Shown piece by piece: positions 9,366 through 49,385 of a DNA stretch of 64,000 nucleotides. Source of the DNA: an uncultured Actinomycetes bacterium (GTDB taxonomy: Bacteria; Actinomycetota; Thermoleophilia; Gaiellales; JAICJC01). How positions within the stretch are numbered: the first letter of the stretch is position 1; each line of letters opens with the position of its first letter. The translations under genes were made by a program, and so were the position numbers. The notes beneath the pieces are model-generated. The model made no database searches, was not told where the DNA came from, and worked only from the letters and a program-made list of their open reading frames with translations. Location of the stretch: NCBI GenBank assembly GCA_963821535.1, contig CAWGEC010000003.1, positions 273,554 through 337,553 on the forward strand. Reading direction: 5' to 3'.

Positions 9366-9375
9366 CGTGATAGCA

Positions 9376-10099: not shown

Positions 10100-10107
10100 T
10101 CATGCAA
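10092..10107. promoter_or_regulatory. ARG-box-like perfect palindrome TTGCATGATCATGCAA upstream of argR
   Basis: 16-nt self-complementary sequence (TGCAT-N4-ATGCA core, the half-site type I recall for actinobacterial ArgR operators). It overlaps the hisA stop (10097-10099) and lies 23 nt before the argR ATG. A TATTGT -10-like box is at 10115-10120. Confidence 0.6.
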
Positions 10108-10129
10108 TAGACGGTATTGTCATGCGTTC

Positions 10130-11531: not shown

Positions 11532-11546
11532 CGATGGGGGTGTTGG

Positions 11547-28213: not shown

Positions 28214-28222
28214 GCAGGTCGC

Positions 28223-29440
28223 TCAGGCGGCGCCGAGCAGCGTCGAGCGCGGTCAGCGCGTACACCTCGGCGCACCGCTCGAGCGCGTCGACGGCCACGT
28301 GCTCGTCGGGCCCGTGCGACACCTCGAGCCGGCCCGGCCCGTAGCAGTACGCCGGCACCCCGAGGCCCGCATAGAAGCGGATCTCGAGCAGGCCGGGGCA
28401 CATCTCGAACCGCAGGTCGGCGTCCTCGACGGCGGCGACGGCGGACGCGAGCGCCCGGCCCAGGTCGGTCTCGGCCGAGACGCCGGCCGCGGGCTCCTCC
28501 TGGAGGATCTCGACCTCGATGTCGTGGCCCTCGCCGCGCAGGCGCTCGAGCAGGTCGAGCAGCCGGTCGCGCTCCTCGTCGAGGTCCTCCTCGGGGTTGA
28601 TGCGGCGGTCGACGGTGAACGAGCACCGGCCGGGGACGACGTTGAAGTTGGCGCCCGACTCCGCCTGGCCGCCGAGCAGGAGGATCGAGCCTCGTGCGGC
28701 GGCGGGCTCGATGGCGTAGGCGGTGCGGCGCTCGCCGACCTCGGTGCGCCAGGCCGCGCAGGGCCGACGCGACGTCGAGCATGTGGGTGAAGGCGTTCAC
28801 GCCGGAGTGGCTGAGGCCGACGTGGGCGCTCGTGCCATGCACGGTCACGCGCAGCGAGATCGCGCCCCGGCAGGCGTTCCACGCGATGCCGCCGGTCGGC
28901 TCCGGGCTCAGCATCCCGATCCCGTCCTCGCCGAGGAGGCCGGCCCGAGCGAGCGCCGCCGATCCGCCCGCGCCGCCCGTCTCCTCGTCCGGCACGAAGA
29001 CCAGCCCCAGCCGCCCGCCGAGGCGCGGCGCCGCGTCTCGCGCATCGCCTGGGCGGCGAGGATCATCGCCGCGAGGCCGCCCTTCATGTCGGCGCTGCCG
29101 CGACCGAAGAGCATCCCGTCTCGCACCTCCGGGGCGAACTGGCCCGGCGTGCTGCGCGGGCACGACGTCGTAGTGGCCGTGGAACCACAGCGTCGGGCCC
29201 GTGCCGACGAAGCTGCGGACGACCGAGCGCGGCGGGCCGTCGGGCGCACGTCACGTCGACAACCTCGGCCTCGAGGCCGGCGTCCTCGATGAGGTCGACG
29301 AGCGCGGCGACGCACTCGGGATAGGCGCGAGCCGGAGGGTTCTCGGTCGCGATCCCGACCAGGCGGCCGGTCGCGGCGACGAGGTCGGTCCGGCCCGCGG
29401 CGATCCGGGCGCGGACGCCGGCTGCTGTCGCTGCGGTCAC
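28223..29440 (-). pseudogene. M20-family metallopeptidase (ArgE/DapE-like deacylase), about 5 frameshifts as assembled
   Basis: GTG 29440 (GTGA overlap with the sortase stop). Pieces across three frames: TDLVAATGRLVGIATENPP / TLWFHGHYDVVPA / LFGRGSADMKGGLAAMILAAQAM / LGLVFVPDEETGGAGGSAAL...ISLRVTVHGTSAHVGLSHSGVNA / GANFNVVPGRCSFTVDRRINPEE...GPGRLEVSHGPDEHVAVD. Switches at about 29240, 29150, 29045, 28745 and 28240. The 3' end is uncertain. Confidence 0.78.
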
Positions 29441-36882: not shown

Positions 36883-37658
36883 GCAGCGAGCTCGTCCTCG
36901 CGCCGTGGTCGAGCCGGTTTCACGGGCCGGGGATGGAGGAGGGGCCGGATGCGGTCGCGGCGTCGCTGGGCCGCGACGGCGGGATACGGGTCGGGTTCGA
37001 CCTCGACGCCCCACCCGTGCAGGCGCTCGGGGCGGGCCTCCCGGCGCTTGCCGACGCGGTGGGTGGCGCCGGCGATCCGCTCGCGCTCCTGGGGGAGTGC
37101 ACGCTCGCGCCCGCCGTGACCGCCGGCCTGCGGCGCGCGCATCCCGACCTGGCGCTCGTGTGGATCGATGCGCACGGCGACCTGAACACGCCGGAGACGA
37201 CGCCGAGCGGCTTCCTGGGCGGCATGCCGTTCGCGGTGCTGCTCGGCTGGTGTCACGACGACCTGCGCGCCGCCGCCGGGCTCGAGCCTGCGTTCGCCGA
37301 GGAGCGGGCGGCGCTGGTCGGCGCGCGCGACCTCGACCCGGGCGAGCGCGATGCGATCGCCCGCTCGCGGCTGGTGGTCGCCGACGACGTGGCGGGCGCG
37401 CTCGCCGGCCTGCCGGACGGCGCTCCGCTCCACGTCCACCTCGACGGCGACGTGCTCGACCCCGAGGACGCGCCCGGCGTCGACTTCCCCGCTCCCGGCG
37501 GCTGGCGCCTGCCGCGGCTGGTCGACGAGATGGCGGCGCTGGCGGCGACCGGCCGCGTGGTGGGCGTGAGCCTGTGCTGCGGCAATCCCCGCCGCGACCC
37601 GGAGGGCCGCTCGGCCGCCGCCTACGCCCGCGCGCTCGAGCCGCTGCTCTCGGCGTAG
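36879..37658 (+). CDS. Arginase/ureohydrolase-fold protein with a degenerate first metal motif
   Basis: GTG 36879 (GTGA overlap with the corrected otsA stop). WIDAHGDLNTP and HVHLDGDVLDP match arginase-family motifs 2 and 3. The GGDH motif position reads LLGECTL (no His). Compare rocF at 53164, which has VIGGDHAI. Confidence 0.7.
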   Translation: MSSELVLAPWSSRFHGPGMEEGPDAVAASLGRDGGIRVGFDLDAPPVQALGAGLPALADAVGGAGDPLALLGECTLAPAVTAGLRRAHPDLALVWIDAHGDLNTPETTPSGFLGGMPFAVLLGWCHDDLRAAAGLEPAFAEERAALVGARDLDPGERDAIARSRLVVADDVAGALAGLPDGAPLHVHLDGDVLDPEDAPGVDFPAPGGWRLPRLVDEMAALAATGRVVGVSLCCGNPRRDPEGRSAAAYARALEPLLSA

Positions 37659-37692
37659 CTGACACAGGGTCGCAACGATCGTGCAACACGGC

Positions 37693-37714
37693 GGGGTGCC
37701 ATACCTGGTCCCCG
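37693..37714 (+). repeat. Copy 1 of a 22-nt imperfect direct repeat (GGGGTGCCATACCTGGTCCCCG) in the moaC upstream gap
   Basis: 18/22 identity with copy 2 at 37812-37833, by my own hand alignment. Contains the TACCTGGT core. Confidence 0.5.
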
Positions 37715-37811
37715 GCCTCCCCGCCGTGACCCTTTCGTGCGTCCGGCGTTGCATCTGCCGGCTGCGATCGCCAGGGTTCCCGGCAGAGGTGCGCCGAATG
37801 CGTGTCGCCGG

Positions 37812-37833
37812 AGGGTGCGTTACCTGGTACCCG
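37812..37833 (+). repeat. Copy 2 of the 22-nt imperfect direct repeat (AGGGTGCGTTACCTGGTACCCG)
   Basis: 119 bp downstream of copy 1. Contains the 9-bp palindrome TACCTGGTA. Followed by the -10-like box TACACT (37840-37845), 8 nt before the moaC ATG. Confidence 0.5.
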
Positions 37834-37853
37834 ACCCCGTACACTTCGCGCGC

Positions 37854-38303
37854 ATGGGCGAGATCCGGATGATCGACGTGGGCGGGAAGCCTGCGACCCG
37901 GCGCCGGGCTGTCGCCCGCGGCCACGTCGCGCTGCCCGGGCACGTGCGCGAGCGGATCGCGGCCGGGACGCTCCCCAAAGGCGACGTCCTCGCCGCCGCC
38001 AGGCTCGCCGGCATCATGGCGGCCAAGCGGACGCCCGACATCGTGCCGCTGTGCCATCCGCTCGCGCTCACGATGGTCGAGGTCGAGCCGGTGCTCGACG
38101 ACGACGGCGTCACCGTCACCGCCGCCGCCGAGACGACCGCGCAGACCGGCGTCGAGATGGAGGCGCTGACCGCGGTCGCAGCCGCTGCGCTCACCGTCTA
38201 CGACATGACGAAGGGGCTCGACCCGAACTCGTCGATCGAGCACATCCGCCTGGTCGAGAAGTCGGGCGGGAAGAGCGGGGACTGGCGGCGGGAGGCGCCG
38301 TGA
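37854..38303 (+). CDS. moaC: Cyclic pyranopterin monophosphate synthase MoaC
   Basis: MGEIRMIDVGGKPATRRRAVARG...LPKGDVLAAARLAGIMAAKRTPDIVPLCHPLALT...GVEMEALTAVAAAALTVYDMTK. Start placed at ATG 37854; the upstream part of ORF 37737..38303 is not MoaC-like. Confidence 0.92.
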   Translation: MGEIRMIDVGGKPATRRRAVARGHVALPGHVRERIAAGTLPKGDVLAAARLAGIMAAKRTPDIVPLCHPLALTMVEVEPVLDDDGVTVTAAAETTAQTGVEMEALTAVAAAALTVYDMTKGLDPNSSIEHIRLVEKSGGKSGDWRREAP

Positions 38304-38774
38304 GGGCTTCCGTCCTGACGGTGTCCGACGGCGTGGCCGCCGGCACCCGCGAGGATCTGAGCGGCAATCTCCTCGCTGACCGTCTCGCCGCCGCCGGCTT
38401 CGACCTCGCCGAGCGGCGCACCGTGCCCGACGAGGCCGACGGCATCGAGGACGCGCTGCGCGAGCTCTCGGCCGTCGGCCGACCTCGTCGTGACGACGGG
38501 CGGCACCGGCTTCGCGCCGCGCGACGTCACCCCGGAGGCCACGGCGCGCGTCGTCGAGCGCGCCACGCCCGGCCTCGACGAGCACATGCGCGCCGTGTCG
38601 ATCGCGGCGTCGCCCCATGGGATGCTCTCCCGCGGCCGAAGCGGGATCGCCGGCTCCGCGCTGATCGTCAACTTCCCCGGCAGCCCACGGGCCTGCGCCG
38701 AGCTCTTCGACGCCGTCGCCCCGGCGCTCGACCACGGCCTCCGCCTCCTGCTCGACCTCCCGACGGCGCATTGA
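38300..38774 (+). pseudogene. mog: MoaB/Mog-family molybdopterin adenylyltransferase, one frameshift
   Basis: GTG 38300 (GTGA overlap). VRASVLTVSDGVAAGTREDLSGNLLADRL...; switch at about 38478; then ORF 38490..38774 VVTTGGTGFAPRDVTPEAT...GLDEHMRAVS...LIVNFPGSPRAC. Confidence 0.85.
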
Positions 38775-39631
38775 CCGCGACCCCCGTCTACGCCCGCCGG
38801 TTCGTGTCGCTCGTCAAGCTCGAGCACACCGTCTTCGCCCTGCCCTACGCCTACGCCGGCGCCGTCCTCGCCGCGGGCGAGGTGCCCGCCGCCCAGACGC
38901 TGGCCTGGATCACCGTCGCGATGGTCGGCGCGCGCAGCCTGGCGATGGCGCTCAACCGCCTGATCGACGCCGGCATCGACGCCCGCAACCCGCGCACGGC
39001 CCGCCGCGAGCTCCCCGCCGGCCTCCTCACCCCCGTCCAGGTCGCGGCGTTCGCAGCCGCCTCGCTGGCGGTCTTCCTCGTCGCCGTCTGGCAGCTCCCG
39101 CCGATCACCCACGTCCTCTGGCCGATCCCCGTCGCCGGGTTCGTCATCTACCCGTACCTGAAGCGCTTCACGTGGCTGTGCCATCCGTTCCTGGGAGCCG
39201 TGGACGGGCTCGCGCCGGTGGGCGGCTGGATCGCCGTGACCGGCACGGTCGACTGGCAGCCGTTCCTCCTCGGCGGGGCGGTCGCGCTGTGGATCGGCGG
39301 CTTCGACATCATCTACGCGACCATGGACCTCGACGTCGACGAGCGCGAGGGCCTGCACTCGATCCCGCGCCGCTTCGGGATCGGGACGGCGCTGCTCCTG
39401 ACCCGGATCGCCCACGCCGGCTCGGTCGTGCTCCTGATCTGGCTGGGGATCGACCTCGGCCTGGGCCCGCTCTACTGGCTGGGGCTCGCCGTGGTTGCCG
39501 TGCTCCTGGCCTACGAGAACTCGATCGTCTCGGAGGACGACCTGTCGCGGGTCGACATGGCGTTCCTCGGGATGAACGGGGTGATCGCGATCGTGTTCCT
39601 GGCCGGGGTGCTGGCCGATGCACTCGCCTGA
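38771..39631 (+). CDS. UbiA-family aromatic prenyltransferase (4-hydroxybenzoate polyprenyltransferase / MqnP-like)
   Basis: TTG 38771 (TTGA overlap). KLEHTVFALPYAY...ARSLAMALNRLIDAGIDARNPRTARRELP...YPYLKRFTWLCHPFLG...GGFDIIYATMDLDVDEREGLHSIPRRFG. Confidence 0.85.
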   Translation: MTATPVYARRFVSLVKLEHTVFALPYAYAGAVLAAGEVPAAQTLAWITVAMVGARSLAMALNRLIDAGIDARNPRTARRELPAGLLTPVQVAAFAAASLAVFLVAVWQLPPITHVLWPIPVAGFVIYPYLKRFTWLCHPFLGAVDGLAPVGGWIAVTGTVDWQPFLLGGAVALWIGGFDIIYATMDLDVDEREGLHSIPRRFGIGTALLLTRIAHAGSVVLLIWLGIDLGLGPLYWLGLAVVAVLLAYENSIVSEDDLSRVDMAFLGMNGVIAIVFLAGVLADALA

Positions 39632-40250
39632 GGCGGTCGTCTGCGAGGGCCTCGTTCGCCGGTTCGGGGAGCGTGACGCCCTGGCCGGCCTCGACCTCTC
39701 CGTGGCGGCGGGCGAGACGGTGCTCATCACGGGCCCGAACGGGGCCGGCAAGACGACGCTCCTTCGCATCCTCGCGACGGTGCTCCGGCCCACGTCCGGC
39801 CGCGTCGCAGTCGCCGGCCACGACCTCCCGGGCAGCGCCGGCGACGTGCGCCGCACGGTCGGATACGCGGGCCACGACCCGCTCGCGTACGCGGACCTGA
39901 CCGCTCGCGAGAACCTGGAGCTCTACGCGGCGCTCTACGCAGTCCCGGACGGCCGGGTCGACGAGGAGCTCGACCGGGTTGGGCTCGACGGCCGCCGCGG
40001 CGACCGCGCGGCCGAGCTCTCGCGCGGGATGCTCCAGCGGCTCGCGCTGGCCCGCATCGGGCTTCACCGGCCCTCGATCGTGCTTCTCGACGAGCCGACG
40101 GCCGGGCTCGATGCCGACGGCCGCGACGTCCTGCGCCGCTTCCTCGCGGAGCCGGGCCGGACGATCGTCGCCGCCACCCACGAGCCGGAGTGGTTCTCGG
40201 GCCTCGAGGACCGGGTCGTGCGGATGGACGCCGGCCGGGTGGGCGCGTGA
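39618..40250 (+). CDS. ccmA: Heme-exporter-type ABC ATPase CcmA
   Basis: 210-aa ORF. GPNGAGKTTLLRILA (Walker A), LSRGMLQRLALARI (signature), IVLLDEPTAGLD (Walker B). Followed directly by ccmB and ccmC. Confidence 0.85.
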   Translation: MHSPEAVVCEGLVRRFGERDALAGLDLSVAAGETVLITGPNGAGKTTLLRILATVLRPTSGRVAVAGHDLPGSAGDVRRTVGYAGHDPLAYADLTARENLELYAALYAVPDGRVDEELDRVGLDGRRGDRAAELSRGMLQRLALARIGLHRPSIVLLDEPTAGLDADGRDVLRRFLAEPGRTIVAATHEPEWFSGLEDRVVRMDAGRVGA

Positions 40251-40930
40251 ACGGGCGTGCGCTCCGGGCGCTCGTCCGCAAGGACCTCCTGCTCGAGCTG
40301 CGCGGCCGCGAGGTCGTCCCGTCGATGGCGGTCTTCGTCGGCGCGGCGTTCGTGCTCTTCCGCTTCGGCCTCGGAGGCACCGAGCTGGCGGGCGGCACGC
40401 GGGCGGCGACGGGCATGCTCTGGGTCGCGATCGTGTTCACGGCTCTCATCGGGCTCGCGCGGTCGTTTGCCCACGAGCGCGAGGGCCGCACATGGGACGG
40501 CCTCCTGGCGGCGCCCGTCGACCGCGCCCTCTTCTGGTTCGCGCGGGCCTGCTCGACGTTCCTCTTCCTGGTCGCGGTGCAGGCGCTCGCGCTGCCCGCG
40601 TTCTGGCTGTTCTTCCTCCAGGAGCACGCCGGGCCGTCCTACCCGGTGCTCGTGGCGGCGGTGCTTCTCGCCGACGTGGGGATCGCATGCCTCGGCTCGC
40701 TCCTGGCGGGCCTGGCGTCGGCGGTGCGGGCGCGCGAGGTGCTCCTGCCGGCGCTCTACCTGCCCTTCTCGATCCCGCTCGTCTTGACCGCCGTCCGTGT
40801 GACGACCGACACGATTCCCCCGCAAACAAGCGGGTTTGACACCCTAGAGCGCCTGGGATTCCTCGCTCTCTATGATACGGTTTTTGCGCTTCTGGGGTGG
40901 GCGCTCTTCGAGTACGTCGTGGAGGATTGA
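40247..40930 (+). CDS. ccmB: Heme exporter protein B (CcmB)
   Basis: GTG 40247 (GTGA overlap). RALVRKDLLLELRGREVVPSMAVF...FAHEREGRTWDGLLAAPV..., six hydrophobic segments. Position between ccmA and ccmC. Confidence 0.82.
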   Translation: MNGRALRALVRKDLLLELRGREVVPSMAVFVGAAFVLFRFGLGGTELAGGTRAATGMLWVAIVFTALIGLARSFAHEREGRTWDGLLAAPVDRALFWFARACSTFLFLVAVQALALPAFWLFFLQEHAGPSYPVLVAAVLLADVGIACLGSLLAGLASAVRAREVLLPALYLPFSIPLVLTAVRVTTDTIPPQTSGFDTLERLGFLALYDTVFALLGWALFEYVVED

Positions 40931-41628
40931 TGGCACATACCGCCCGCCTCGACCGGGCAACCGCCGCCACGTTGATCGCTGCGGTTCTCATGCCCGCCGC
41001 TGTCGCACTGATCTTCTTCTACGTCCCGAGCGACGTCGATCAGGGCTACTCGCAGCGGATCTTCTACTTCCACGTGCCGATCGCGCTCACCACCTACACC
41101 CTCTTCGCGTGGGGAGCCGTGAACGCCGCCCGCTACCTCTGGACCGGCCGCGAGGAGCTCGACCTCCAAAGCTACGTGCCGATGCACCTCGGCGTCATCT
41201 TCGGCTCGCTCACCCTCGTCACCGGCTCGATCTGGGCGCACATCTCGTGGGGCACGTGGTGGGACTGGGGGAGCCGCGAGCTGAACACGTTCCTCATCAT
41301 CTTCCTGTTCTACTGTGCGTACTTCATGCTGCGCTTCTCGGTGGAGCCGGGCGCCCGCCGGTCGCGGTACTCGGCCGTGTACGCGCTCCTCGGCGTCGGG
41401 CTGATCCCGCTCTCGGTGCTCGCGGTGCGCATCGCCCAGGACGCGCTCCACCCAATCGTCTTTCGATCGAACGGCGTCAACATGGACGGCAGCATGTTCT
41501 TCACGTTCCTGGTCGCGCTGGCCGCGATGCTGAGCCTGGCGGTGTCGATGTACCTCGTCGAGATGCGCGGCAAGCGGGTCGACGAGCGGCTCGCCCAGCT
41601 CCGGCGGCTGGCCCGGGGGCCGGCATGA
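40930..41628 (+). CDS. ccmC: Heme exporter protein C (CcmC)
   Basis: MAHTARLD...RIFYFHVPIA...GSIWAHISWGTWWDWGSRE (WGxxWxWD tryptophan-rich heme-handling motif)...DALHPIVF (second conserved His). Confidence 0.9.
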   Translation: MAHTARLDRATAATLIAAVLMPAAVALIFFYVPSDVDQGYSQRIFYFHVPIALTTYTLFAWGAVNAARYLWTGREELDLQSYVPMHLGVIFGSLTLVTGSIWAHISWGTWWDWGSRELNTFLIIFLFYCAYFMLRFSVEPGARRSRYSAVYALLGVGLIPLSVLAVRIAQDALHPIVFRSNGVNMDGSMFFTFLVALAAMLSLAVSMYLVEMRGKRVDERLAQLRRLARGPA

Positions 41629-41786
41629 TCGACGAGTCGGCCGTCCGGTCGGTCGCCGCCGTCTACGGCATCGCGTGGGTCGCCACGCTGGCCTACGTCG
41701 TCATCCTGAACGCGAAGCTCGGCCGGCTCGAGCGCCAGCTCGAGGAGATCGCGGGCATGCTGGAGGCTCGGAGCGGGGATGCCTAG
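41625..41786 (+). CDS. Small single-TM protein in the CcmD position (CcmD-like)
   Basis: 53 aa MIDESAVRSVAAVYGIAWVATLAYVVILNAKLGRLERQLEEIAG... ATGA overlap with the ccmC stop. Overlaps the hemA start by 8 nt. Confidence 0.6.
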   Translation: MIDESAVRSVAAVYGIAWVATLAYVVILNAKLGRLERQLEEIAGMLEARSGDA

Positions 41787-43035
41787 CACCGCCCAGCTCG
41801 TCCTCGTCGGCACCAACCACACGCGTGCCCCGGTCGCGGTGCGCGAGCGGCTGGCGGCGCACGACCACGGCCGCGAGCTCCTCGAGGTCCTGACCGGCTC
41901 GTCGGACGTGGCCGAGGCGGTCGGCCTCTCGACGTGCAACCGGTGCGAGCTCTACATGGTGGGGGCCGACGTCGGCGCCATGCGCCAGGCGGCTGTGGAC
42001 GGCCTCGGCCATCTCTCGGGGCACGCGGCCGAGCGGCTCGAGCCGATGCTGTACGTCCACCACGGCGAGGCCGCCGCGCGCCACCTCTTCGGCGTCGCCG
42101 GCGGCCTCGACTCCATGGTGCCCGGCGAGGCGCAGATCCTCGCCCAGATCCGCGAGGCCTACGAGTCCGCGTACGAGTGGGACACGACCGGCCCGGTGAC
42201 GAACCGGCTCTTCCACCAGGCGCTCGAGGCGGGCAAGCGCGTGCGCCACGAGACGGCGATCGGCGAGGGCGGCGCGTCTCCGGCCTCCGTTGCCGCCGAG
42301 CTTGCGGCCGACCGGCTCGGCGACGAGCTGGCCGCCGCGCGCGTGCTCGTCGTCGGGGCCGGCAGGGTGGCCGAGCTCGTCGCGGCCAACCTGGCCGCCC
42401 GCGGCGTCGGATCGATCGCGGTCGCCAACCGCGATGCCTCCAGGGCGTCGGCGCTCGCCTCCCGGTTCGGCGGCCAGGCGGTCGACTTCGCCGACCTGCG
42501 CGCTGCGATCGCCGCGGCGGACGTCGTCGTCGCCTCCACGGCTGCGCGGGAGCCGCTCATCGGGCCCGGCGACGTCCCTCCGGGCCGGCGCGTGCTGATC
42601 GACCTCGCCGTTCCGCGCGACATCCACCCCGACGTTGCCGCCGTCGACGGAGCCGCGCTGCACACGATCGACGACCTCGAGGCGGTGGTCGAGCGGACCA
42701 TCTCGCTGCGCCACGGCGAGGCCGACCGCGCCCACGAGATCGTCGCCGCCCAGGCGGCCGGCTTCCGCGACTGGATGGCGGCGCTCGAGGTGGTGCCGGC
42801 GATCACCTCGCTCCGGGCGCACGCCGAGCGCATCAGGGTCTCCGAGCTCCAGCGGGCGCGCCTCGGCGACCTGTCCGATGCGGAGCGCGAGCGGCTCGAC
42901 GCCCTCACCCGCGGGATCGTGAACAAGCTCCTCCACCGGCCGACCGTCCGCCTGAAGCAGCTCGCGGCCGAGGACGGCTCGGCGCCGTACGCCGAGGCGG
43001 TCACCGAGCTCTTCGGGCTGGCCGCCGTCGAATGA
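41779..43035 (+). CDS. hemA: Glutamyl-tRNA reductase HemA
   Basis: 418-aa ORF. LVLVGTNHTRAPVAVRERL...LSTCNRCELY...GLDSMVPGEAQILAQIR...VLVVGAGRVAELVA...IVNKLLHRPT. Confidence 0.94.
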   Translation: MPSTAQLVLVGTNHTRAPVAVRERLAAHDHGRELLEVLTGSSDVAEAVGLSTCNRCELYMVGADVGAMRQAAVDGLGHLSGHAAERLEPMLYVHHGEAAARHLFGVAGGLDSMVPGEAQILAQIREAYESAYEWDTTGPVTNRLFHQALEAGKRVRHETAIGEGGASPASVAAELAADRLGDELAAARVLVVGAGRVAELVAANLAARGVGSIAVANRDASRASALASRFGGQAVDFADLRAAIAAADVVVASTAAREPLIGPGDVPPGRRVLIDLAVPRDIHPDVAAVDGAALHTIDDLEAVVERTISLRHGEADRAHEIVAAQAAGFRDWMAALEVVPAITSLRAHAERIRVSELQRARLGDLSDAERERLDALTRGIVNKLLHRPTVRLKQLAAEDGSAPYAEAVTELFGLAAVE

Positions 43036-43791
43036 TCCGGCTCGGGACGCGCCGCAGCCGGCTGGCGACGGCGCAGGCCCGGATCGTCGCCGACCAGCTC
43101 GGCGGCGCGGAGCTCGTCCCCATCACGACGGAGGGCGACCGCGACGCGGCGAGGAGCTTCGCCGAGATCGGCACCGGCCGCGGCGTGTTCACCCGGGAGA
43201 TCGAGCGCGCGCTCCTGGACGGCGACGTCGACGCCGCCGTGCACAGCGCGAAGGATCTGACCGGCGACATGCCCGACGGGCTCGTGCTGGGGGCGATCCT
43301 CGAGCGGGCCGACCCCCGCGACGCGGTGCTGCGGCGCCTTCGGTTCCCTCGCCGAGATCCCGGCCGGTGCGCGGGTCGGCACCTCGTCCGCCCGGCGGGC
43401 GGGCCTGCTGGCGGAGCTTCGGCCCGACATCCGGGTGGTGCCGCTGCGCGGCAACGTCGACACCCGCCTCGCCAAGCTCGACGCCGGTGACGCCGACGCG
43501 ATCGTGCTGGCGGCGGCCGGGCTGGAGCGGCTGGGGCTCGGCGATCGGATCGCGTTCCTGCTCGATCCGCGCGAGTTCGTGCCGGAGGCCGGGCAGGGGG
43601 CGATCGCCGTCCAGGTGAGAGCGGGCGAGGAGGCGCTGGTCGCAGCGCTCGACCACGCGCCCACCCGCGCCGCCGTCGAGGCCGAGCGCGACTGCGTCCG
43701 CCGGCTGGGCGGCGGCTGCACCGCGGCGGTCGCCGCGCACGCCTGGCACGAGGACGGCGAGCTCCGTCTTCGGCACTGGACGGCCGCGTGA
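43032..43791 (+). pseudogene. hemC: Hydroxymethylbilane synthase (porphobilinogen deaminase) HemC, one frameshift
   Basis: MIRLGTRRSRLATAQARIV...TTEGDR...GVFTREIERALLDGDVDAAVHSAKDL; switch at about 43330; ARVGTSSARRAGLL...VPLRGNVDTRLAKL...EAGQGAIAVQ...RRLGGGCTAAVAA (ORF 43435..43791). Confidence 0.9.
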
Positions 43792-45237
43792 CCGTCTACC
43801 TGGTCGGCGCCGGGCCCGGGCGACCCGGGGCTCGTCACGGTCCGCGGCCGCGAGCTGGTCGAGCGCTGCGACGCGATCGTGTACGACCGGCTGGCCGACC
43901 CGCGGATCGTCGCGCTCGCGCCCGAGGCCGCCGAGAGGGTCTACGCCGGCAAGCGGCCCGGGGAGCACGCGATGACCCAGGAGCGGCTGAACGCCCTGCT
44001 GGTGGAGCTCGGCGGCCGGCTCGAGACGGTCGTCCGGCTGAAGGGCGGCGACCCCTTCGTGTTCGGCCGCGGCGGCGAGGAGGCGCTGGCGCTCGAGGGC
44101 GCCGGGATCGCCTTCGAGATCGTCCCCGGCGTCAGCTCGGCCCACGCCGTCCCCGCGTATGCCGGGATCCCGGTGACCCAGCGCGGTACGGCGGCGCAGG
44201 TGACGTTCGTGACCGGGCACGAGGATCCGACCCGGCCCGAGAGCGCCATCGACTGGGCGTCGCTCGCGGCGACCCCCGGCACGCTCGTCTTCCTGATGGG
44301 CGTCGGCGCGCTCGAGGAGAACGCCCGCCGGCTGATCGCCCACGGGATGCGCGCCGACACGCCGGCGGCGGTGATCTCACACGGGACGCGGCCCGACCAG
44401 CGCACCGTGACAGCGCCGCTCGCGCGCATCGCCGACGCCGCCGCAGAGCTGCCCGCGCCGGCGATCACCGTCGTCGGCGAGGTGGCGCTCCTGCGCGAGC
44501 ATCTGGCCTGGTTCGAGCGGCGCCCGCTCCACGGACTGCGCGTCGTCGTCACCCGGGCCCGGGCGCAGGCCAGCGGCCTGCGCGCCAGCCTGGAGGAGCT
44601 CGGCGCCGCCGTGACCGAGGCGCCTGCGATCCGGATCGAGCCGCTCCCGTTCGAGCCGCCCGATCTGTCCGCGTTCGACCTGCTCGTCCTGACCAGCGCG
44701 AACGGCGTCGAGCGGATCCTCCCGGACGACGTCCGGGCGCTGGCCGGAGTCACCGTCGCCGCGGTCGGGAGCGCGACGGCCGATGCGCTGCCGGGCGCAC
44801 GGCATCGTCGCGGACGTGGTTCCCGCGCGGGCGGTCGGCGAGGCGCTTCTCGAGGCGCTCGGCGACGTCGGCGGGCGGCGCTGCCTCGTCGCCGCGGCCG
44901 AGGGCGCCCGCGACGTCGCTCCCCGAGGGGCTCTCGGCCCGGGGCGCCGACGTGACGGTGCTGCACACGTACCGGTCGCGTTCCCGAGCCGGTCGACCCC
45001 GACGCCGTGCTCGCCGCCGACCTCGTCACGTTCACGTCGTCGTCCACCGTCGCCAACCTGGCCCGGGCCATGGACGGGCGAGACCTGTCCGGCCTCCGGG
45101 CGGTGTCGATCGGCCCGGTGACGAGCGCCAGCCTGCGGGAGGCGGGGATCGAGCCGGTCGCCGAGGCCGATCCGCACGACGTCCCCGGCCTCGTCGAGGC
45201 GGTGCTCGCGGCCGCCGGTAGAGTCCCGAGATCGTGA
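43788..45237 (+). pseudogene. Fused uroporphyrinogen-III C-methyltransferase (CobA/SUMT) and uroporphyrinogen-III synthase (HemD), about 4 frameshifts
   Basis: VTVYLVGAGPG, switch at about 43820, DPGLVTVRGRELV...LKGGDPFVFGRGGEE...FEIVPGVSSA...TFVTGHE (ORF 43879..44955), then a HemD-like part (LRVVVTRA...LVLTSANGV). Switches at about 44795, 44918 and 44975. Ends in ORF 45007..45237 (VTFTSSSTV...SIGPVTS). Confidence 0.85.
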
Positions 45238-45912
45238 GCACGGCGCGCTACGACGGCCTTGCCGACTGGTACGACACGTGGTCGGAGCGCCCGGCGGTGG
45301 CGAGCTTTACGGCGGAGGCCATCGCCGCGGTGCTGCGCCTGCTCGGCCCGGGGCCGGGCCGATGCCTCGACGTGGGCTGCGGCGGCGGGCGGCTCCTGGT
45401 CGAGCTGGCCGACGCCGGGTGGGCGGTCACCGGCGCCGACCTCTCCGGCGATCAGCTCCGGGTCGCCGAGCTGCGCGCCGGCGGGCGGGTCGACGCGCTC
45501 GTCCAGGCCGACGCGGCCGCGCTGCCCTTCGCCGACGGCGCGTTCGACGCGGTCGTCTCGACCTTCACGCACACCGACGTCGACGAGCCGGAGGCGGCCT
45601 TCGGCGAATGCGCCCGCGTGCTCGCCCGCGGCGGGCGGCTCGTGCTACGCCGGGACGCACCCCTGCTTTGTCGGGCCCTACGCGCATCAGACTGACGACG
45701 GCGTGCTCGTCCCTCCGGGCTACTGGGATCGGCGGCTGCACTTCGACGCCCCGGGGTTCGGAGACGGCGTGCGTCGCCTGGCGGGCGCCCGGCACCTCCC
45801 GCTGGCCGACCTCCTGAACCATGTGTCCGCCGCCGGGCTCGCCCTCGACCGGGTCGAGGAGGTGAACGGCGACCCACCCGGGATCCTCGCCCTCCGGGCG
45901 TCGAAGCGATGA
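45234..45912 (+). pseudogene. Class I SAM-dependent methyltransferase, one frameshift
   Basis: GTG 45234 (GTGA overlap). RCLDVGCGGGRLLVELA (motif I)...LPFADGAFDAVVS...LARGGRLV; switch at about 45645; YAGTHPCFVGPY... (tail of ORF 45259..45912). Confidence 0.8.
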
Positions 45913-46740
45913 GCCCCACCGTCGTCACGTTCCTGTCGGACTTCGGCACCGCGGACGACTTCGTCGGCATCTGCCACGGCGTCATCCTGCGCGCCTGTCC
46001 GGAGGCGCAGGTCGTCCACGTCACCCACGGGATCCGGGCGCAGGCGATCGGGCACGGCGCCCGCGTGCTCGCCGGCGCGATCCCCTACCTGCCCGTCGGC
46101 GTGCATCTCGCGGTCGTCGACCCGGGCGTCGGGTCCGGCCGCCACGCGATTGCGCTCCGGAGTGCGGACGGCCGCCTGTTCGTCGGCCCCGACAACGGCC
46201 TTCTGATCACGGCGGCCGAGGCGTGCGGGGGCATCGTCGAGGCGACACGAGATCTCGAATCCCGATGTGATGCTGCATCCGGTCTCGCGCACGTTCCACG
46301 CCCGCGACATCTTCTCGCCGGCGACGGGCCACCTCGCCGCCGGGATGCCGCTGGCCAACCTCGGGCCGGCGCTCGACCCGGCCGACCTCGTCCGCCGCGT
46401 CGGCATCGATCACGAGCTCGACGGCTCGCTGCTCACGGCCTCGGTGCAGCACGTCGACCGGTTCGGGAACATCCAGCTCGCGGTGTTCGCCTCGGAGCTC
46501 GACGGCCTGTTCGAGCCGGGCCGGCTCGCCGAGGTCGTCACCCCGGACGACCGCTACTACGTACGCTGCGCCGAGACGTTCGCCGACGTCGACGCCGGCG
46601 AGCTGGTCCTGTACAAGGATGCCTCGGGGCTCCTGTCGGTCGCCGTGAACCGGGGCAGCGCGGCCGAGCTCACCGCCACGGAGGCCGGCGACCACATCGG
46701 CGTCGAGTTCTCTCCCAGCCGGCACGGGCGAATTTCTTGA
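45909..46740 (+). pseudogene. SAM hydrolase / SAM-dependent halogenase family protein (DUF62), one frameshift
   Basis: MSPTVVTFLSDFGTADDFVGICHGVI...HLAVVDPGVGS...LFVGPDNGLL; switch at about 46255; SRTFHARDIFSPATGHLA...VDRFGNI...KDASGLLSVAVNRGSAAEL (ORF 46267..46740). Confidence 0.82.
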
Positions 46741-46775
46741 CCGGGCGGGCCCGGTGTGGTGGAATCCGGCGTAGT

Positions 46776-46823
46776 CGAACGGCCTCCGAGGAGCGGTAGC
46801 ACCGTCCCGGAGGCCGTTCGTTT
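46776..46823 (+). terminator. Rho-independent terminator after the 12-gene operon
   Basis: CGAACGGCCTCCG (46776-46788) / CGGAGGCCGTTCG (46808-46820), perfect 13-bp arms followed by TTT. Confidence 0.7.
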
Positions 46824-46832
46824 CCGCGCCGA

Positions 46833-46838
46833 TAGAAT
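46833..46838 (+). promoter_or_regulatory. -10 box TAGAAT for tRNA-Phe
   Basis: Near-consensus hexamer, 9 nt upstream of tRNA position 1. Confidence 0.5.
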
Positions 46839-46847
46839 CCCGGCCGC

Positions 46848-46920
46848 GGCGAGGTAGCTCAGTTGGTAGAGCACGCGACTGAAAATCGCGGTGTCGCTGG
46901 TTCGATCCCGGCCCTCGCCA
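46848..46920 (+). tRNA. tRNA-Phe (anticodon GAA), CCA not encoded
   Basis: Folded by hand. Acceptor GGCGAGG/CCTCGCC, D arm GCTC-AGTTGGTA-GAGC, anticodon arm CGCGA-CTGAAAA-TCGCG, T arm GCTGG-TTCGATC-CCGGC, discriminator A. 73 nt. Followed by TCT, not CCA. Confidence 0.93.
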
Positions 46921-46929
46921 TCTCGCAGG

Positions 46930-49385
46930 TCATCCTTCCCGGAGAGCCAGCTCGATCGCCTCCTCCAGCGTGAGGGTCGATCCGGCCGCGAACTCGGTGT
47001 CGAACTGCTGTCCGACGCGTTCGCGTGCAGACCGCAAGGTCGTCTCGAGGACTCGGCCCTCGAGTCGGGGATCGAGCTCGTGCCCGTGCTGATCGGCAAT
47101 GGCCTGGACGGCGGCCAGGAGCCTGGTCGCCGCGGCGGCATCGTCGTCCACGCGCAGGGCGGCCAGGAGAACGAGCGCCTCGACGATCGACGCGGTCGAG
47201 GTGAGAGCGACTGCGTCGGCGAGCGCCTTCTCCAGAATTGGCCGAGCCTCGGCATGTCGATCGCCGGCCAGCAGCGTGTAGCCGACGGAGATATCGGCGT
47301 TGGTCGCTTCCCATCGCCGCCCGAGCTTGCGGAAGAGCGCCGCCGCCTGCTCGAGCATCTCCCGGGCCGGGTCGAGGCGTCCCTCGTCCATGAACGTCAG
47401 GCCGCGCAGGTACGCAACCCAGCCGAGCCCAGCCTCGTTTCCGAGCTCGCGCGAGAGGCGCTCGCAGTCGTCGAGCAATTTCCTGCGCTCCGCGAGGTCA
47501 GGTTCGTCGAAGCTCAAGACGCGAAGCGCCCACTCGATCTGGCGCTTGTCGTCGCGTTCGCGCGCCAGGGCGAGGCTCTCGTGTGCGTGCCTCCGCGCGG
47601 CTTCGGTCTCACCGAGATTGGCAGCTGCGAGTGCGGCAGCACCCAGCGCGTCAGCTCGAAGGGCAGGGCTCACCTCGGCTGCGCGTTCGAGTGCGGACAC
47701 GAGCCATCCATGCAGTTCCCGCAGGTTCGCGTGTGTCCAGAGACACCAGAACGCATGAATGGCGAGACGAAGCTCACGGTGTATGTCCCCAGAGGAGACG
47801 AGCCACTCGCGTGCGCGGCGAAAGTTGTCGAGCTCCGAGTAGAGCCGGCGGGCTCGCTCCACGTCCTGATCTGGGGCCCCCCCGGTGGCCTCTTCTCCGA
47901 GAGCGATGAAGTAGTCGGCGTGCCGATCGGCGAGCACGTCCGTCCCGCCGTGCAGCTCGAGCTGCTCCGCTGCGTACTCCCTGAGCGTCTCGAGCATCCA
48001 GAGGCGCTCCCCTTGCCGCCGAAGCAGGCTCTTGTCGATCAGCGACTGGAAGGTGTCGATGTCGGCTTCACAGATCTCCTCAGCAGCCTCCAGCGTGGCG
48101 CCGCCGCGGAAGGCCGAGACGCGTTCGAACAGGAGCCGCTCATGCTCGCCGAGCAGGTCGTAGCTCCATTCGATCGTCGCCCGCAGCGTCTGTTGGCGCG
48201 GATCGACGCCGCGGACGGCCTTGAGCAGGTCGAGGCGTTCGGAGAGACGGGCGAGGAGCTGCTCGGGGAGAGGACCGCGACGCGGGTGGCCGCGAGCTCG
48301 AGGGTGAGGGGGAGGTTGTCGAGCTGAGAGCAGAGCCGGGCAACGATCGGGCTGGGCTCAAACCGAGGATCCGCCGCTCGCGCCCGCGCGGTGAAGAGCT
48401 CTGTCGCATCCCGGGGATCGAGCGGCGGCACCGGATACGCCTGCTCGCCGGGGATTCGCAGCAGCTCCCGGCTCGTCACGAGGAGTTGGAGGTTCGGGCA
48501 GACGGCGAGCAACCCGGCGAGCTCAGGTGCTGCATCGATCAGATGCTCGAAGTTGTCGAGGATGAGCAGGAGCCGACGGTCGGCGATGCGGTTGGCGAGA
48601 GTGTCCCTCGCCTCCAGCGCCTGGCCGGCCGCCTCGAGGAGGAGGCTCGGGTCGCGTAATGGAGCAAGTGCGGCCCAGAAGAGGCCGTCGGGGTACTCGT
48701 CGGACGCCTCCGCAGCCGCCTGGAGCGCGAGCCTGGTCTTGCCCGTGCCGGCCGGTCCCGTCAATGTCAGCAGGCGCGCGCCACGGCCCTTGAGCAGGGT
48801 CGTCACCTCCGCGAGCTCTCGTTGGCGCCCCAGGAACGGCGTTGCCGGAACCGGGAGGTTCGTCTGGTGCAGGCTCTTCAGGGGCCGGAAGGGCTCGTCG
48901 CCGAGCTGATAGATCCGCTCCGATGCCGCGAGGTCTTTGAGGCGGTGCTCGCCGAGATCGCGCAAGCTGCCGCCTTCGACCAGCGATGCCGTCGACGACG
49001 AGATGAGGATCTGCCCGCCGTGCCCGGCCGCCGCGATGCGGGCTGCCCGGTGGACGTCAGGTCCGACGTAGCCCTCATCGATGACATTCGGCGTCCCCGT
49101 GTGGATCCCCATGCGCACACGGATCGGGCCGGCAGCGAGCGCCTGCTGCGCTTCCGACGCGGCGGCGAGGGCAGCCGGCGCGGTGGAGAACGCGATAAAG
49201 AACGAGTCGCCCTGCGTATCGACTTCGACGCCGTCGTGGCGAGCGAACGCGCGCCGAAGTGCGCGGCGATGCTGGATCAGTGCGTTCGAGTAGCCATCGG
49301 CGCCCAGCTGGTTCAGGAGCCGTGTCGAGCCCTCGACGTCGGTGAAGAGGAACGTGACGGTTCCGGTCGGAAGCACGTGGGCCAT
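46930..49385 (-). pseudogene. Class III adenylate/guanylate cyclase domain + STAND/AAA NTPase + TPR-like repeat protein (about 818 aa), one frameshift
   Basis: ORF 48039..49385: GTVTFLFTDVEGSTRL...GDSFFIAF...IRVRMGIHTG...GPDVHRAARI (cyclase), then LTGPAGTGKTRLAL (Walker A)...LLILDNFEH (Walker B). Deletion in the GGGG run 48265-48268, then ORF 46930..47997 plus its in-frame upstream sequence (EQLLARLSERLDLLK...helical repeats). No C-terminal HTH seen. Confidence 0.85.

What the first reader, a model, noticed from the sequence alone, without database searches (positions are those of the whole stretch)
37854..46740. Twelve translationally coupled genes join Moco synthesis, a UbiA prenyltransferase, an orphan ccmABCD heme exporter and hemA-hemC-cobA/hemD
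From moaC to the DUF62 gene, every junction is an overlap of 1-14 nt. The single terminator (46776-46823) comes only at the end.

CcmA, CcmB, CcmC (WGTWWDWG and both His present) and a CcmD-like peptide are present. hemA follows directly. No ccmE, ccmF, ccmG or ccmH is here, and high-GC Gram-positives generally use the ResBC/CcsBA system instead.

An exporter that loads heme, placed between a quinone-type prenyltransferase and the tetrapyrrole trunk pathway, suggests a co-regulated respiratory-cofactor operon. A CcmABCD with a non-canonical acceptor is also possible.

The trailing SAM methyltransferase and SAM hydrolase (DUF62) have no obvious role in this set.
Basis: partly seen in the sequence, partly recalled or inferred. 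Interest (0 to 1): 0.6.

Follow-up and report, generated by a model that had tools for sequence, protein, structure and literature searches.

The report
Gaiellales cofactor operon with split System I
This is a real, conserved gene cluster of a soil actinobacterium (order Gaiellales) that strings together molybdenum-cofactor, menaquinone, heme-export and heme-synthesis genes. Its "orphan" ccmABCD is most likely the export half of a known streamlined cytochrome c maturation system whose other half lies elsewhere, so it is mostly ordinary.

Summary
The twelve genes and their 1-14 nt overlaps are there, and Pfam/NCBIfam confirm the assignments. As it stands in the window, 5 of the 12 genes are broken by 8 single-base insertions.

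The window comes from a Gaiellales bacterium (Thermoleophilia, Actinomycetota). The order moaC-mogA-ubiA-ccmABC(D)-hemA-hemC-hemD-SAM hydrolase is colinear in 82 of 83 related loci.

The ccmABCD set is not a clade-level orphan. Related Gaiellales carry ccmE and ccmF. Some have them inserted between ccmB and ccmC of this same cluster. Others have a separate ccmE-ccmF-small ORF locus. All seven CcmE proteins examined have the TKCPS(K/R)Y (CxxxY) motif of the streamlined archaeal/Desulfovibrio-type System I.

I could not show ccmE/ccmF in the window's own genome. The 64 kb window has none.

The 3' hairpin is real and is a conserved RNA structure with strong covariation.

Verdict: a new member of a known kind. 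The operon architecture is neat and the phylum is unusual for System I. Interest is about 0.3.

The parts
37815..38303 (+). moaC, cyclic pyranopterin monophosphate synthase.
   Evidence: PF01967, 171 bits. TIGR00581, 177 bits against a cut-off of 141.5. tblastn of the L003 MoaC covers 37815-38294.
38300..38774 (+). mogA/moaB-type molybdopterin adenylyltransferase-like gene. It is split by a 1-nt insertion at about 38474.
   Evidence: The repaired protein matches PF00994 at 119 bits. Two-frame tblastn. The insertion is absent from L099 (97% identical) and from L003, L004 and L005.
38771..39631 (+). UbiA-family prenyltransferase of the MqnP (futalosine-pathway menaquinone) type.
   Evidence: PF01040, 174.6 bits. 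TIGR01475, 289.5 bits against a cut-off of 180.8. The MqnP-specific models score 286-326 bits, below their cut-offs of 420-430.
39618..40250 (+). ccmA, the heme-exporter ABC ATPase.
   Evidence: TIGR01189, 140.9 bits against a cut-off of 131.6. PF00005.
40247..40930 (+). ccmB, the heme-exporter permease.
   Evidence: PF03379, 72.1 bits against a cut-off of 24.9. TIGR01190 scores only 37 bits against 156.
40930..41628 (+). ccmC, the heme-handling WWD protein.
   Evidence: PF01578, 90.7 bits. It aligns with E. coli CcmC (7F02_C), with H60, the WWD motif and H184 conserved. These residues are invariant in 13 relatives. It is the most conserved protein of the cluster: 96% identical to L003, against 86% DNA identity.
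41625..41786 (+). ccmD-family small membrane peptide (53 aa).
   Evidence: TIGR04391 CcmD_alt_fam, 29.4 bits against a cut-off of 24. A 53-aa ORF sits at the same place in L001-L003 and in the JGI contigs.
41779..43035 (+). hemA, glutamyl-tRNA reductase.
   Evidence: GlutR_N, Shikimate_DH and GlutR_dimer domains. TIGR01035, 376 bits.
43032..43791 (+). hemC, porphobilinogen deaminase. It is a short 252-aa form and is split by a 1-nt insertion at about 43328.
   Evidence: The repaired protein matches PF01379 at 241 bits. The insertion is absent from L100 and from L003, L004 and L005.
43788..45237 (+). cobA-hemD fusion (uroporphyrinogen-III C-methyltransferase / uroporphyrinogen-III synthase). 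Four 1-nt insertions lie at about 43815-21, 44797, 44919 and 44978.
   Evidence: The repaired protein matches PF00590 at 172 bits and PF02602 at 169 bits. Indel map. L100 lacks the first insertion.
45234..45912 (+). Class I SAM-dependent methyltransferase of unknown substrate. It is split by a 1-nt insertion at about 45645.
   Evidence: Methyltransf_11/25 domains. All NCBIfam hits are far below their cut-offs. At this position it is found only in the closest relatives (6 of 83 loci). Gaiellaceae carry a methyltransferase after the SAM hydrolase instead.
45909..46740 (+). SAM hydrolase (DUF62 / SAM_HAT family). It is split by a 1-nt insertion at about 46245.
   Evidence: PF01887, 151 bits, and PF20257, 61 bits. 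(R)-SAM hydrolase models score 172.6 bits, below their cut-off. It is present in 66 of 83 loci.
46776..46823 (+). Conserved RNA hairpin followed by GTTTCC, at the 3' end of the cluster. It is the probable intrinsic terminator or 3' stabiliser.
   Evidence: Inverted repeat. The fold has a z-score of -4.2. The core is identical in L003, L004 and L005. Covariation in 29 distinct versions: 93.3% of cells paired, 9 of 19 pairs with double changes, 0 of 500 shuffles as high.
46848..46920 (+). tRNA-Phe (GAA), the downstream neighbour that marks the end of the cluster.
   Evidence: ARAGORN. Rfam RF00005, 70 bits. A tRNA-Phe lies downstream of the cluster in seven of the eight relatives scanned; the eighth locus is cut off by its contig end.

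Best explanation
**What it is.** The region is an operon-like cluster of a Gaiellales bacterium (Thermoleophilia, Actinomycetota). It packs four sets of genes for respiratory cofactors into one tightly overlapped unit:
- Moco synthesis (moaC, mogA);
- menaquinone prenylation (an MqnP-like UbiA);
- heme export (ccmABCD);
- the tetrapyrrole trunk (hemA, hemC, cobA-hemD).

A SAM methyltransferase and a SAM hydrolase follow, and the cluster ends in a conserved RNA hairpin.

**How ccmABCD works here (inferred).** CcmABCD is the ATP-driven module of System I that presents heme at the outer face of the membrane and loads the chaperone CcmE. In this order the rest of the machinery is a streamlined variant:
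- CcmE with a Cys (CxxxY) heme-binding motif;
- CcmF;
- a small CcmI-N-terminus-like ORF, and sometimes a ResA/CcmG-like thioredoxin.

These genes lie elsewhere in most genomes and inside this same cluster in some Gaiellaceae. Placing ccmABCD directly upstream of, and overlapping, hemA would couple the supply of heme to its delivery to c-type cytochromes such as the bc1 complex.

**Shown.** Gene identities, overlaps, conservation of the gene order, ccmE/ccmF in relatives, covariation in the hairpin, and the artefactual nature of the frameshifts.

**Inferred.** Co-transcription, the presence of ccmE/ccmF in this particular genome, and the physiological logic.
For: - Family assignments.
- CcmC keeps the WWD motif and both heme-ligand His residues. 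They align to the solved E. coli CcmC and are invariant in relatives.
- CcmC is the best conserved protein of the cluster: 96% amino-acid identity at 86% DNA identity.
- Taxonomy: the nearest relatives are all Gaiellales/Thermoleophilia MAGs.
- Synteny: of 83 loci, ccmB is present in 81, ccmA in 80, hemA, hemC and ubiA in 75 each, and the SAM hydrolase in 66. The order is colinear in 82 of 83.
- ccmE and ccmF lie inside the cluster in L031 and L040 and in L084-L087, with Pfam PF03100 and PF01578 + PF16327.
- L046 has ccmC-hemA-ccmE-ccmF-ccmI-like-ccmG-like.
- ccmE and ccmF form a separate locus, with a small downstream ORF, in L089 and L102. L088 and L101 show ccmF and the small ORF only; in L088 ccmF begins 84 nt from the contig end.
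- All 7 CcmE proteins carry TKCPS(K/R)Y. This is the CxxxY variant that works with CcmABC(D)EF in archaea and in Desulfovibrio (PMC9084895).
- L035 has a protein with two CXXCH motifs inserted between ccmB and ccmC.
- The frameshifts are absent from 97% identical short-read contigs. They sit at different positions in the sister long-read assemblies L004, L001 and L002.
Against: - ccmE and ccmF were not found in the 64 kb window or within 10 kb of the cluster in the 17 closest loci, L001-L017.
None of the large contigs that carry the window-type CcmC appeared among the listed CcmF hits. The lists are cut at 120, however.
- CcmB and CcmC score below the NCBIfam equivalog cut-offs, so they are divergent.
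- Co-transcription is untested. No promoter or canonical terminator was detected.
Confidence: 0.75

Rival explanations
1. This is a true orphan. The window's lineage has lost, or never had, ccmE/ccmF. Its CcmABCD then exports heme to a non-canonical acceptor, or acts as a heme-status sensor that tunes HemA in the manner of HemX.
For: - No ccmE/ccmF lies in the window or in L001-L017, and none could be linked to this lineage.
- ccmD overlaps hemA by 8 nt.
- 58 of 83 related loci carry a HemX-like PF01578 protein without a WWD motif exactly between ccmD and hemA. The window's lineage lacks it, so another protein might have taken over that role.
- HemX controls glutamyl-tRNA reductase abundance in S. 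aureus (PMC5801465; title and abstract only).
Against: - CcmC keeps the periplasmic WWD domain and both His ligands under strong purifying selection. These features are those used to hand heme to CcmE, and the HemX-like proteins lack the WWD motif.
- Sister lineages with equally similar CcmC (L031 and L040, 62-63% identity) have ccmE/ccmF inside the cluster.
- Many 'Gaiellales bacterium' MAGs carry ccmE-ccmF as a separate locus.
- The failure to link is a limit of the tools (lists cut at 120, no whole-genome access), not evidence of absence.
Confidence: 0.12
2. The cluster is decaying. The eight frameshifts are real mutations, and the operon is a string of pseudogenes in this strain.
For: Five of the twelve genes are out of frame as the sequence stands. 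All eight lesions are 1-nt insertions.
Against: - GC3 coding periodicity continues undiminished after every shift.
- The three insertion sites that the short-read contigs cover (about 38474, 43328 and 43815) lack the extra base in 97% identical JGI contigs that encode the very same CcmC.
- Other long-read assemblies of close relatives have single-base frameshifts in different genes: L004 in moaC, ubiA and ccmA; L001 and L002 in hemA and hemC.
- Unrelated genes elsewhere in the window (MoeA, an M20 peptidase, a GT4 glycosyltransferase and probably PBP1a) are split in the same way.
Confidence: 0.03
3. The genes are adjacent but are not one regulatory unit. Internal promoters drive the moa/ubiA, ccm and hem blocks separately, and the overlaps only reflect genome compaction in a high-GC organism.
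For: - In Gaiellaceae the same order is kept, but other genes are inserted and gaps of 100-900 nt appear. Examples are a DUF1932 gene or a metallophosphatase between ubiA and ccmA, hemX, and divergent ccmE-ccmF. The blocks therefore tolerate separation.
- Four-nucleotide overlaps are common in actinobacterial genomes (general knowledge).
Against: - In the window's lineage all 11 junctions overlap. In L003 only one of the eight same-strand junctions on record outside the cluster overlaps.
- The order is conserved across an order-level clade.
- No sigma-70-like promoter was detected inside the cluster, although that scan is weak for this phylum.
Confidence: 0.25

Closest known systems
System I (Ccm) cytochrome c maturation, heme-export module CcmABCD of E. 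coli (structures 7F02 and 8CE1)
   Same: - The four components appear in the same order.
- CcmA passes the CcmA equivalog model.
- CcmC aligns to E. coli CcmC with the WWD motif and H60/H184 conserved.
- A CcmD-family peptide follows ccmC.
   Different: - ccmE, ccmF, ccmG and ccmH are not adjacent.
- CcmB and CcmC are divergent and score below the NCBIfam equivalog cut-offs.
- The host is a Gram-positive-type actinobacterium.
- The genes are embedded between a menaquinone prenyltransferase gene and hemA rather than in a ccm operon.
Streamlined variant System I with CxxxY CcmE (archaea such as Methanosarcina acetivorans, and Desulfovibrio; PMC9084895, which cites Allen 2006 and Goddard 2010)
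   Same: - Relatives of this cluster encode CcmE with TKCPS(K/R)Y in place of HxxxY.
- They have a single CcmF and no recognisable CcmH.
- The ccm genes are split between loci.
   Different: - A CcmD-family peptide is present here. Archaea lack it; Desulfovibrio has it.
- A small ORF that resembles the CcmI N-terminus follows ccmF (TIGR03142, 26.6 bits against a cut-off of 29.3).
- Occurrence in Actinomycetota is not discussed in the papers I could search.
hemAXCDBL operon of Bacillus subtilis and HemX of Staphylococcus aureus (PMC5801465)
   Same: A PF01578-family membrane protein is encoded next to hemA, followed by hemC and hemD. Gaiellaceae relatives have a HemX-like protein without a WWD motif directly upstream of hemA.
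   Different: - In the window the PF01578 protein is a bona fide WWD CcmC with its ABC partners.
- It lies upstream of hemA, not downstream.
- No HemX-like gene is present.
Actinobacterial hem cluster hemA-hemC-cysG/hemD(-hemB), with System II genes (ccdA-resB-ccsA) near hemL, as in Mycobacterium and Corynebacterium (from my own knowledge, plus PMC9145763)
   Same: The order hemA-hemC-(cobA-hemD fusion) is the same, and heme-synthesis genes are linked to cytochrome c maturation genes.
   Different: The linked maturation genes here belong to System I, not System II. hemB and hemL are not in the cluster.

Membership tests
System I heme-export module (CcmABCD) | CcmA-type ABC ATPase | tested here: met
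   TIGR01189, 140.9 bits against a cut-off of 131.6.
System I heme-export module (CcmABCD) | CcmB permease | tested here: met
   Pfam PF03379, 72.1 bits against a cut-off of 24.9. The stricter TIGR01190 equivalog is not reached (37 bits against 156).
System I heme-export module (CcmABCD) | CcmC with a WWD motif and two periplasmic His heme ligands | tested here: met
   WGTWWDWG, H48 and H174 align with E. coli WGTWWVWD, H60 and H184 and are invariant in 13 relatives. TIGR01191 scores 100.6 bits, below its cut-off of 186.
System I heme-export module (CcmABCD) | Small CcmD membrane peptide after ccmC | tested here: met
   TIGR04391 CcmD_alt_fam, 29.4 bits against a cut-off of 24.
System I heme-export module (CcmABCD) | A CcmE heme chaperone encoded in the same genome as acceptor | not testable with these tools
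   It is absent from the 64 kb window. It is present in relatives L031, L040, L046, L084-L087, L089 and L102. There was no access to the rest of this genome.
System I heme-export module (CcmABCD) | A CcmF synthetase encoded in the same genome | not testable with these tools
   The limits are the same as for CcmE. CcmF is widespread in Gaiellales, but no hit could be tied to the window's lineage.
Variant System I (CxxxY CcmE, no CcmH) | CcmE carries Cys instead of His in the xxxY heme-binding motif | tested here: met
   This was tested in relatives only. Seven of 7 Gaiellales CcmE proteins have TKCPS(K/R)Y.
Variant System I (CxxxY CcmE, no CcmH) | No CcmH/CcmI partner of CcmF | tested here: inconclusive
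   No CcmH was seen next to ccmF in nine loci. A conserved 70-110 aa ORF follows ccmF with sub-threshold similarity to the CcmI N-terminus (TIGR03142, 26.6 bits against 29.3).
HemX-type regulator of glutamyl-tRNA reductase | A PF01578 membrane protein without a WWD motif, adjacent to hemA and without ABC partners | tested here: not met
   The window's PF01578 protein has a WWD motif and CcmA/B/D partners. No HemX-like sequence is in the window. Gaiellaceae relatives do have one.
MqnP (futalosine-pathway menaquinone prenyltransferase) | Passes an MqnP-specific model | tested here: inconclusive
   The best hits are the MqnP models, at 286-326 bits, all below their cut-offs of 420-430. The broader TIGR01475 UbiA-like model is passed (289.5 bits against 180.8).
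Intrinsic terminator | A GC-rich hairpin immediately followed by a U tract, downstream of the last gene | tested here: inconclusive
   The hairpin is strong and covaries. The tail in the window is only GUUUCC and is missed by the scan. Most Gaiellaceae versions have 4-6 T, but 7 versions have no T tract.

The most novel reading that the evidence does not exclude
In this Gaiellales lineage the HemX-like gene that sister families carry between ccmD and hemA is missing. CcmABCD, translationally coupled to HemA, might then do double duty: export heme for c-type cytochromes and report heme flux back to glutamyl-tRNA reductase. In the extreme case it would work without CcmE/CcmF on a non-canonical acceptor.
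Probability: 0.1. Interest if true: 0.55.

Novelty: new member of a known kind. Interest (0 to 1): 0.3.

Why it matters
- A deep-branching, soil-abundant actinobacterial order appears to mature its c-type cytochromes with the streamlined Cys-CcmE form of System I. Textbook Actinobacteria use System II instead.
- The heme-export half is wired directly into the heme-synthesis operon, together with Moco and menaquinone genes.
- This is a tidy example of cofactor-supply genes for respiration gathered in one unit. Gaiella occulta is cultivable and could be used to study CxxxY CcmE in a bacterium that also has CcmD.
- The finding does not open a new mechanism.
- There is a practical lesson: long-read MAG windows from organisms with about 73% GC carry roughly one indel per kb, which can masquerade as gene junctions or pseudogenes.

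Tried and rejected
**Attempts to link a ccmE/ccmF locus to the window's own genome (all failed)**
- I compared the longest-contig lengths of CcmC and CcmF hits. None matched.
- I compared NCBI accession blocks. No series was shared.
- I compared sample accessions of the loci. No sample was shared.
- I looked up the window's exact CcmC. Only short JGI contigs were returned; the single long contig on record was not shown.
- The representative search with CcmF gave clusters too coarse to resolve the lineage.

**Regulatory elements**
- There is no Moco or other riboswitch upstream of moaC, and no Rfam family for the hairpin.
- The sigma-70 promoter and terminator consensus scan found nothing in 37000-47500.

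**A promoter reading I did not adopt**
- I considered TTGACC-17 nt-TGGAAT (46738-46766), just upstream of the hairpin, as a promoter for a tiny hairpin RNA.
- The same spacing recurs in relatives with TANNNT-like hexamers.
- However, the -35 (window lineage) or the -10 (Gaiellaceae) overlaps the stop codon of the preceding gene, so the conservation is ambiguous. I left this open.

**Literature**
- No paper in the library deals with ccm genes in Gaiellales or Thermoleophilia.

**Not pursued**
- I did not run structure prediction. The sequence-level assignments were unambiguous.

Full report
**Observation.** The window is about 73% G+C, so raw ORF lists are useless. A GC3 frame plot and stop-to-stop translations show continuous + strand coding from about 37.8 to 46.74 kb.

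Pfam and NCBIfam identify the following, in order:
- MoaC;
- a MogA/MoaB-type MoCF_biosynth protein;
- a UbiA prenyltransferase whose best models are MqnP (below their cut-offs) and which passes TIGR01475;
- CcmA (TIGR01189, above its cut-off);
- CcmB (PF03379);
- CcmC (PF01578);
- a 53-aa CcmD-family peptide (TIGR04391, above its cut-off);
- HemA;
- HemC;
- a CobA-HemD fusion;
- a class I SAM methyltransferase;
- a SAM hydrolase (SAM_HAT_N/C).

The start and stop positions give overlaps of 4, 4, 14, 4, 1, 4, 8, 4, 4, 4 and 4 nt.

CcmC aligns with the solved E. coli CcmC. The residues that match H60, the WWD motif and H184 are conserved.

Five of the twelve genes are not in one frame in the window: mogA, hemC, cobA/hemD, the methyltransferase and the SAM hydrolase.
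- tblastn with the intact orthologues of locus L003 splits each of them into two frames.
- Nucleotide alignment against three relatives shows 8 single-base insertions specific to the window, at about 38474, 43328, 43815-21, 44797, 44919, 44978, 45645 and 46245.
- Short-read JGI contigs encode exactly the window's CcmC and are 97% identical in DNA. They cover three of these sites, and each lacks the extra base.
- Sister long-read assemblies have their own single-base frameshifts in other genes: L004 in moaC, ubiA and ccmA; L001 and L002 in hemA and hemC.
- Coding periodicity continues after every shift.
- Unrelated genes elsewhere in the window are split in the same way: MoeA, an M20 peptidase, a GT4 glycosyltransferase and probably PBP1a.

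I conclude that these are indel errors of a long-read assembly, not pseudogenes.

moaC also most likely starts at GTG 37815 (162 aa, as in L003) rather than at 37854.

**Origin and conservation.** The CcmC search returns only Gaiellales relatives. A scan of GTDB species genomes returns 80 loci. All are MAGs labelled Gaiellales, Gaiellaceae or Thermoleophilia, or only to phylum or class.

tblastn of the twelve proteins against 83 loci gives these counts:

| Gene | Loci with the gene (of 83) |
|---|---|
| ccmB | 81 |
| ccmA | 80 |
| ubiA | 75 |
| hemA | 75 |
| hemC | 75 |
| mogA | 74 |
| moaC | 73 |
| hemD | 72 |
| SAM hydrolase | 66 |

- Many of the misses are contig ends. The order is colinear in 82 of 83 loci.
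- The complete run of overlapping junctions is a feature of the window's own lineage (L003 has the same pattern).
- In Gaiellaceae the order is kept, but gaps and extra genes appear.
- The upstream neighbours (response regulator, histidine kinase, TreT, OtsA, an arginase-family gene) are separated by gaps. 155 nt precede moaC in L003.

**Is ccmABCD an orphan?** Within the 64 kb window it is.
- CcmC is the only WWD protein.
- No coding segment of 80 aa or more has a CXXCH motif.
- Nothing resembles ccmE, ccmF, ccmG, the ccmI-like ORF or hemX.

At clade level it is not.
- In L031 and L040 a CcmF with WGGYYAWDPVEN and a 135-aa CcmE sit on the opposite strand between ccmB and ccmC.
- A search with that CcmF finds more than 100 close Gaiellaceae homologues.
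- The two I looked up, at four loci, have the same layout. It reads moaC-mogA-ubiA-ccmA-ccmB, then divergent ccmF and ccmE, then ccmC-ccmD-(hemA)-hemC-hemD-SAM hydrolase-methyltransferase. CcmE and CcmF carry Pfam PF03100 and PF01578 + PF16327.
- L046 has ccmC-hemA-ccmE-ccmF, then a small ORF, then a ResA/DsbE-like thioredoxin with WCRAC. It comes from the same MAG as L035, whose main cluster lacks ccmEF.
- A second search, with a 'Gaiellales bacterium' CcmF, shows a broad set of CcmF proteins.
- In L089 and L102, ccmE-ccmF-small ORF is a separate locus. L088 and L101 show ccmF and the small ORF only, and in L088 ccmF begins 84 nt from the contig end.
- All seven CcmE proteins carry TKCPS(K/R)Y. 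This is the CxxxY variant described for archaea and a few bacteria such as Desulfovibrio desulfuricans, where CcmABC(D)EF suffices (PMC9084895).
- The small ORF after ccmF resembles the CcmI N-terminus just below threshold.
- L035 even has a protein with two CXXCH motifs inserted between ccmB and ccmC.
- Classical Actinobacteria use System II (PMC9145763).

The parsimonious reading is that Gaiellales use a split, streamlined System I, and that the window shows its export half.

**The limit of this conclusion.** I could not demonstrate ccmE/ccmF in the window's own genome.
- None of the 17 closest loci has them within 10 kb.
- The hit lists are cut at 120.
- No CcmF hit shares a contig length, accession block or sample with the window-type CcmC.
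- One group of CcmF loci (L101, L102) has the same high G+C (74-75%) and the same error-ridden long-read character as the window's lineage. That is only suggestive.

I therefore keep about 0.12 for a true orphan. Against that rival, CcmC is the most conserved protein of the cluster (96% amino-acid identity at 86% DNA identity). It retains the periplasmic heme-handling residues. The WWD motif among them is absent from the HemX-like protein.

**HemX connection.** In 58 of 83 loci (Gaiellaceae and others) a membrane protein of about 275 aa lies between ccmD and hemA. It belongs to PF01578 (58.9 bits) and has no WWD motif. This recalls hemX of the Bacillus hemAXCDBL operon and the S. aureus HemX that modulates glutamyl-tRNA reductase (PMC5801465). 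The window's lineage lacks this gene, and there ccmD overlaps hemA directly. This is the basis of the 'novel case'.

**3' end.** The hairpin at 46776-46823 is real. Its fold has a z-score of -4.2.
- By energy alone it is not unique. Four coding-region windows are at least as stable, and the consensus terminator scan misses it.
- Its core is identical in relatives whose coding DNA is 86-93% identical.
- Homologous hairpins follow the last gene of the cluster in about 40 loci.
- On 29 distinct versions, 93.3% of cells pair and 9 of 19 pairs show changes on both sides. There are 79 double-change cells against 26 ± 5.5 in shuffles (0 of 500 as high), and the slid controls give at most 12.
- One position is U·G in 25 of 29 versions. 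This points to RNA pairing on the + strand.
- Most versions end in a T tract, which fits an intrinsic terminator. Seven do not, and the apical GCGGUAGCACCG is nearly invariant. The element may therefore do more than terminate.
- No Rfam family matches it.
- A tRNA-Phe follows at 46848-46920.

**Comparison and verdict.** Each part is a known family:
- hemA-hemC-(cobA-hemD) is the usual actinobacterial hem block;
- the ccm genes belong to the known CxxxY variant of System I;
- linkage of heme synthesis with cytochrome c maturation genes is familiar from Bacillus and mycobacteria.

Two things are new. The phylum is unusual, because Actinomycetota normally use System II. The architecture is also unusual: Moco, menaquinone, heme-export and heme-synthesis genes, plus a SAM hydrolase, sit in one overlapped unit conserved across an order.

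I rate it a new member of a known kind. Interest is about 0.3, and the confidence in the main explanation is 0.75.

Noticed in passing
window 38474, 43328, 43815-43821, 44797, 44919, 44978, 45645, 46245; also 807-2040, 24954-26977, 27037-28210, 28197-29037: There are about eight single-base insertions in 9 kb of the cluster. Several other genes in the window are split between frames (a GT4 glycosyltransferase, MoeA, an M20 peptidase and probably PBP1a). This is typical of indel errors in long-read assemblies of high-GC MAGs. Sister assemblies L004, L001 and L002 have their own, different frameshifts.
   Followed up: yes
window 46776-46823 (flanks 46738-46835): The 3' hairpin is a conserved RNA structure. 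Its core is identical in close relatives, and 29 distinct versions show strong covariation and a U·G pair. The apical GCGGUAGCACCG is nearly invariant, and seven versions lack a T tract. A promoter-like pair (TTGACC-17 nt-TGGAAT) lies just upstream but overlaps the stop codon. No Rfam family matches. It may be more than a terminator.
   Followed up: partly
L029 10751-11575; also L021, L027, L053, L071 and 58 of 83 loci in all: Gaiellaceae relatives carry a HemX-like PF01578 membrane protein, without a WWD motif, between ccmD and hemA. The window's lineage lacks it.
   Followed up: partly
L035 7855-9924: In one Thermoleophilia MAG, two genes are inserted between ccmB and ccmC: a 218-aa ORF that looks Crp/Fnr-like by eye (no family search run) and a 470-aa protein with two CXXCH motifs. 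This links the cluster physically to a c-type cytochrome.
   Followed up: partly
L088 2078-2389, L089 8013-8306, L046 ~4770-5030, L102 11545-: A conserved 70-110 aa ORF (one transmembrane helix plus a charged helical tail) overlaps the end of ccmF in Gaiellales. It has sub-threshold similarity to the CcmI N-terminal domain (TIGR03142, 26.6 bits against a cut-off of 29.3). It may be a minimal CcmF partner in a system that otherwise lacks CcmH.
   Followed up: partly
window 43032-43791: HemC is short (252 aa here and in all close relatives), and only the first half of the C-terminal domain matches PF03900. The GGGC motif with the cofactor-binding Cys is kept.
   Followed up: no
window 46848-46920: tRNA-Phe (GAA) lies directly downstream of the cluster. 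It was found downstream of the cluster in seven of the eight relatives scanned, preceded by a -10-like TAGAAT or TACACT about 12 nt upstream.
   Followed up: partly
L035 and L046 (JABFWJ01); L037 and L043 (DASRCL01): Two MAGs each contain two copies of ccmC on different contigs. One pair is a full cluster plus a ccmC-hemA-ccmE-ccmF locus. This may be true paralogy or mixed bins.
   Followed up: no
window 4660-16288 and 27037-28210: Upstream lie histidine (hisIE, hisF, hisH, hisC/B, hisG, hisA), arginine (argR, argF, argG, argH) and proline (proB, proA) biosynthesis genes. A further Moco gene, moeA, lies at 27037-28210, separate from moaC and mogA.
   Followed up: no
window 45234-45912 versus L084/L086 ~2380-4386: The methyltransferase precedes the SAM hydrolase in the window's lineage but follows it in the Gaiellaceae. 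tblastn does not detect the two as homologues, so two different methyltransferases are paired with the same conserved SAM hydrolase.
   Followed up: no
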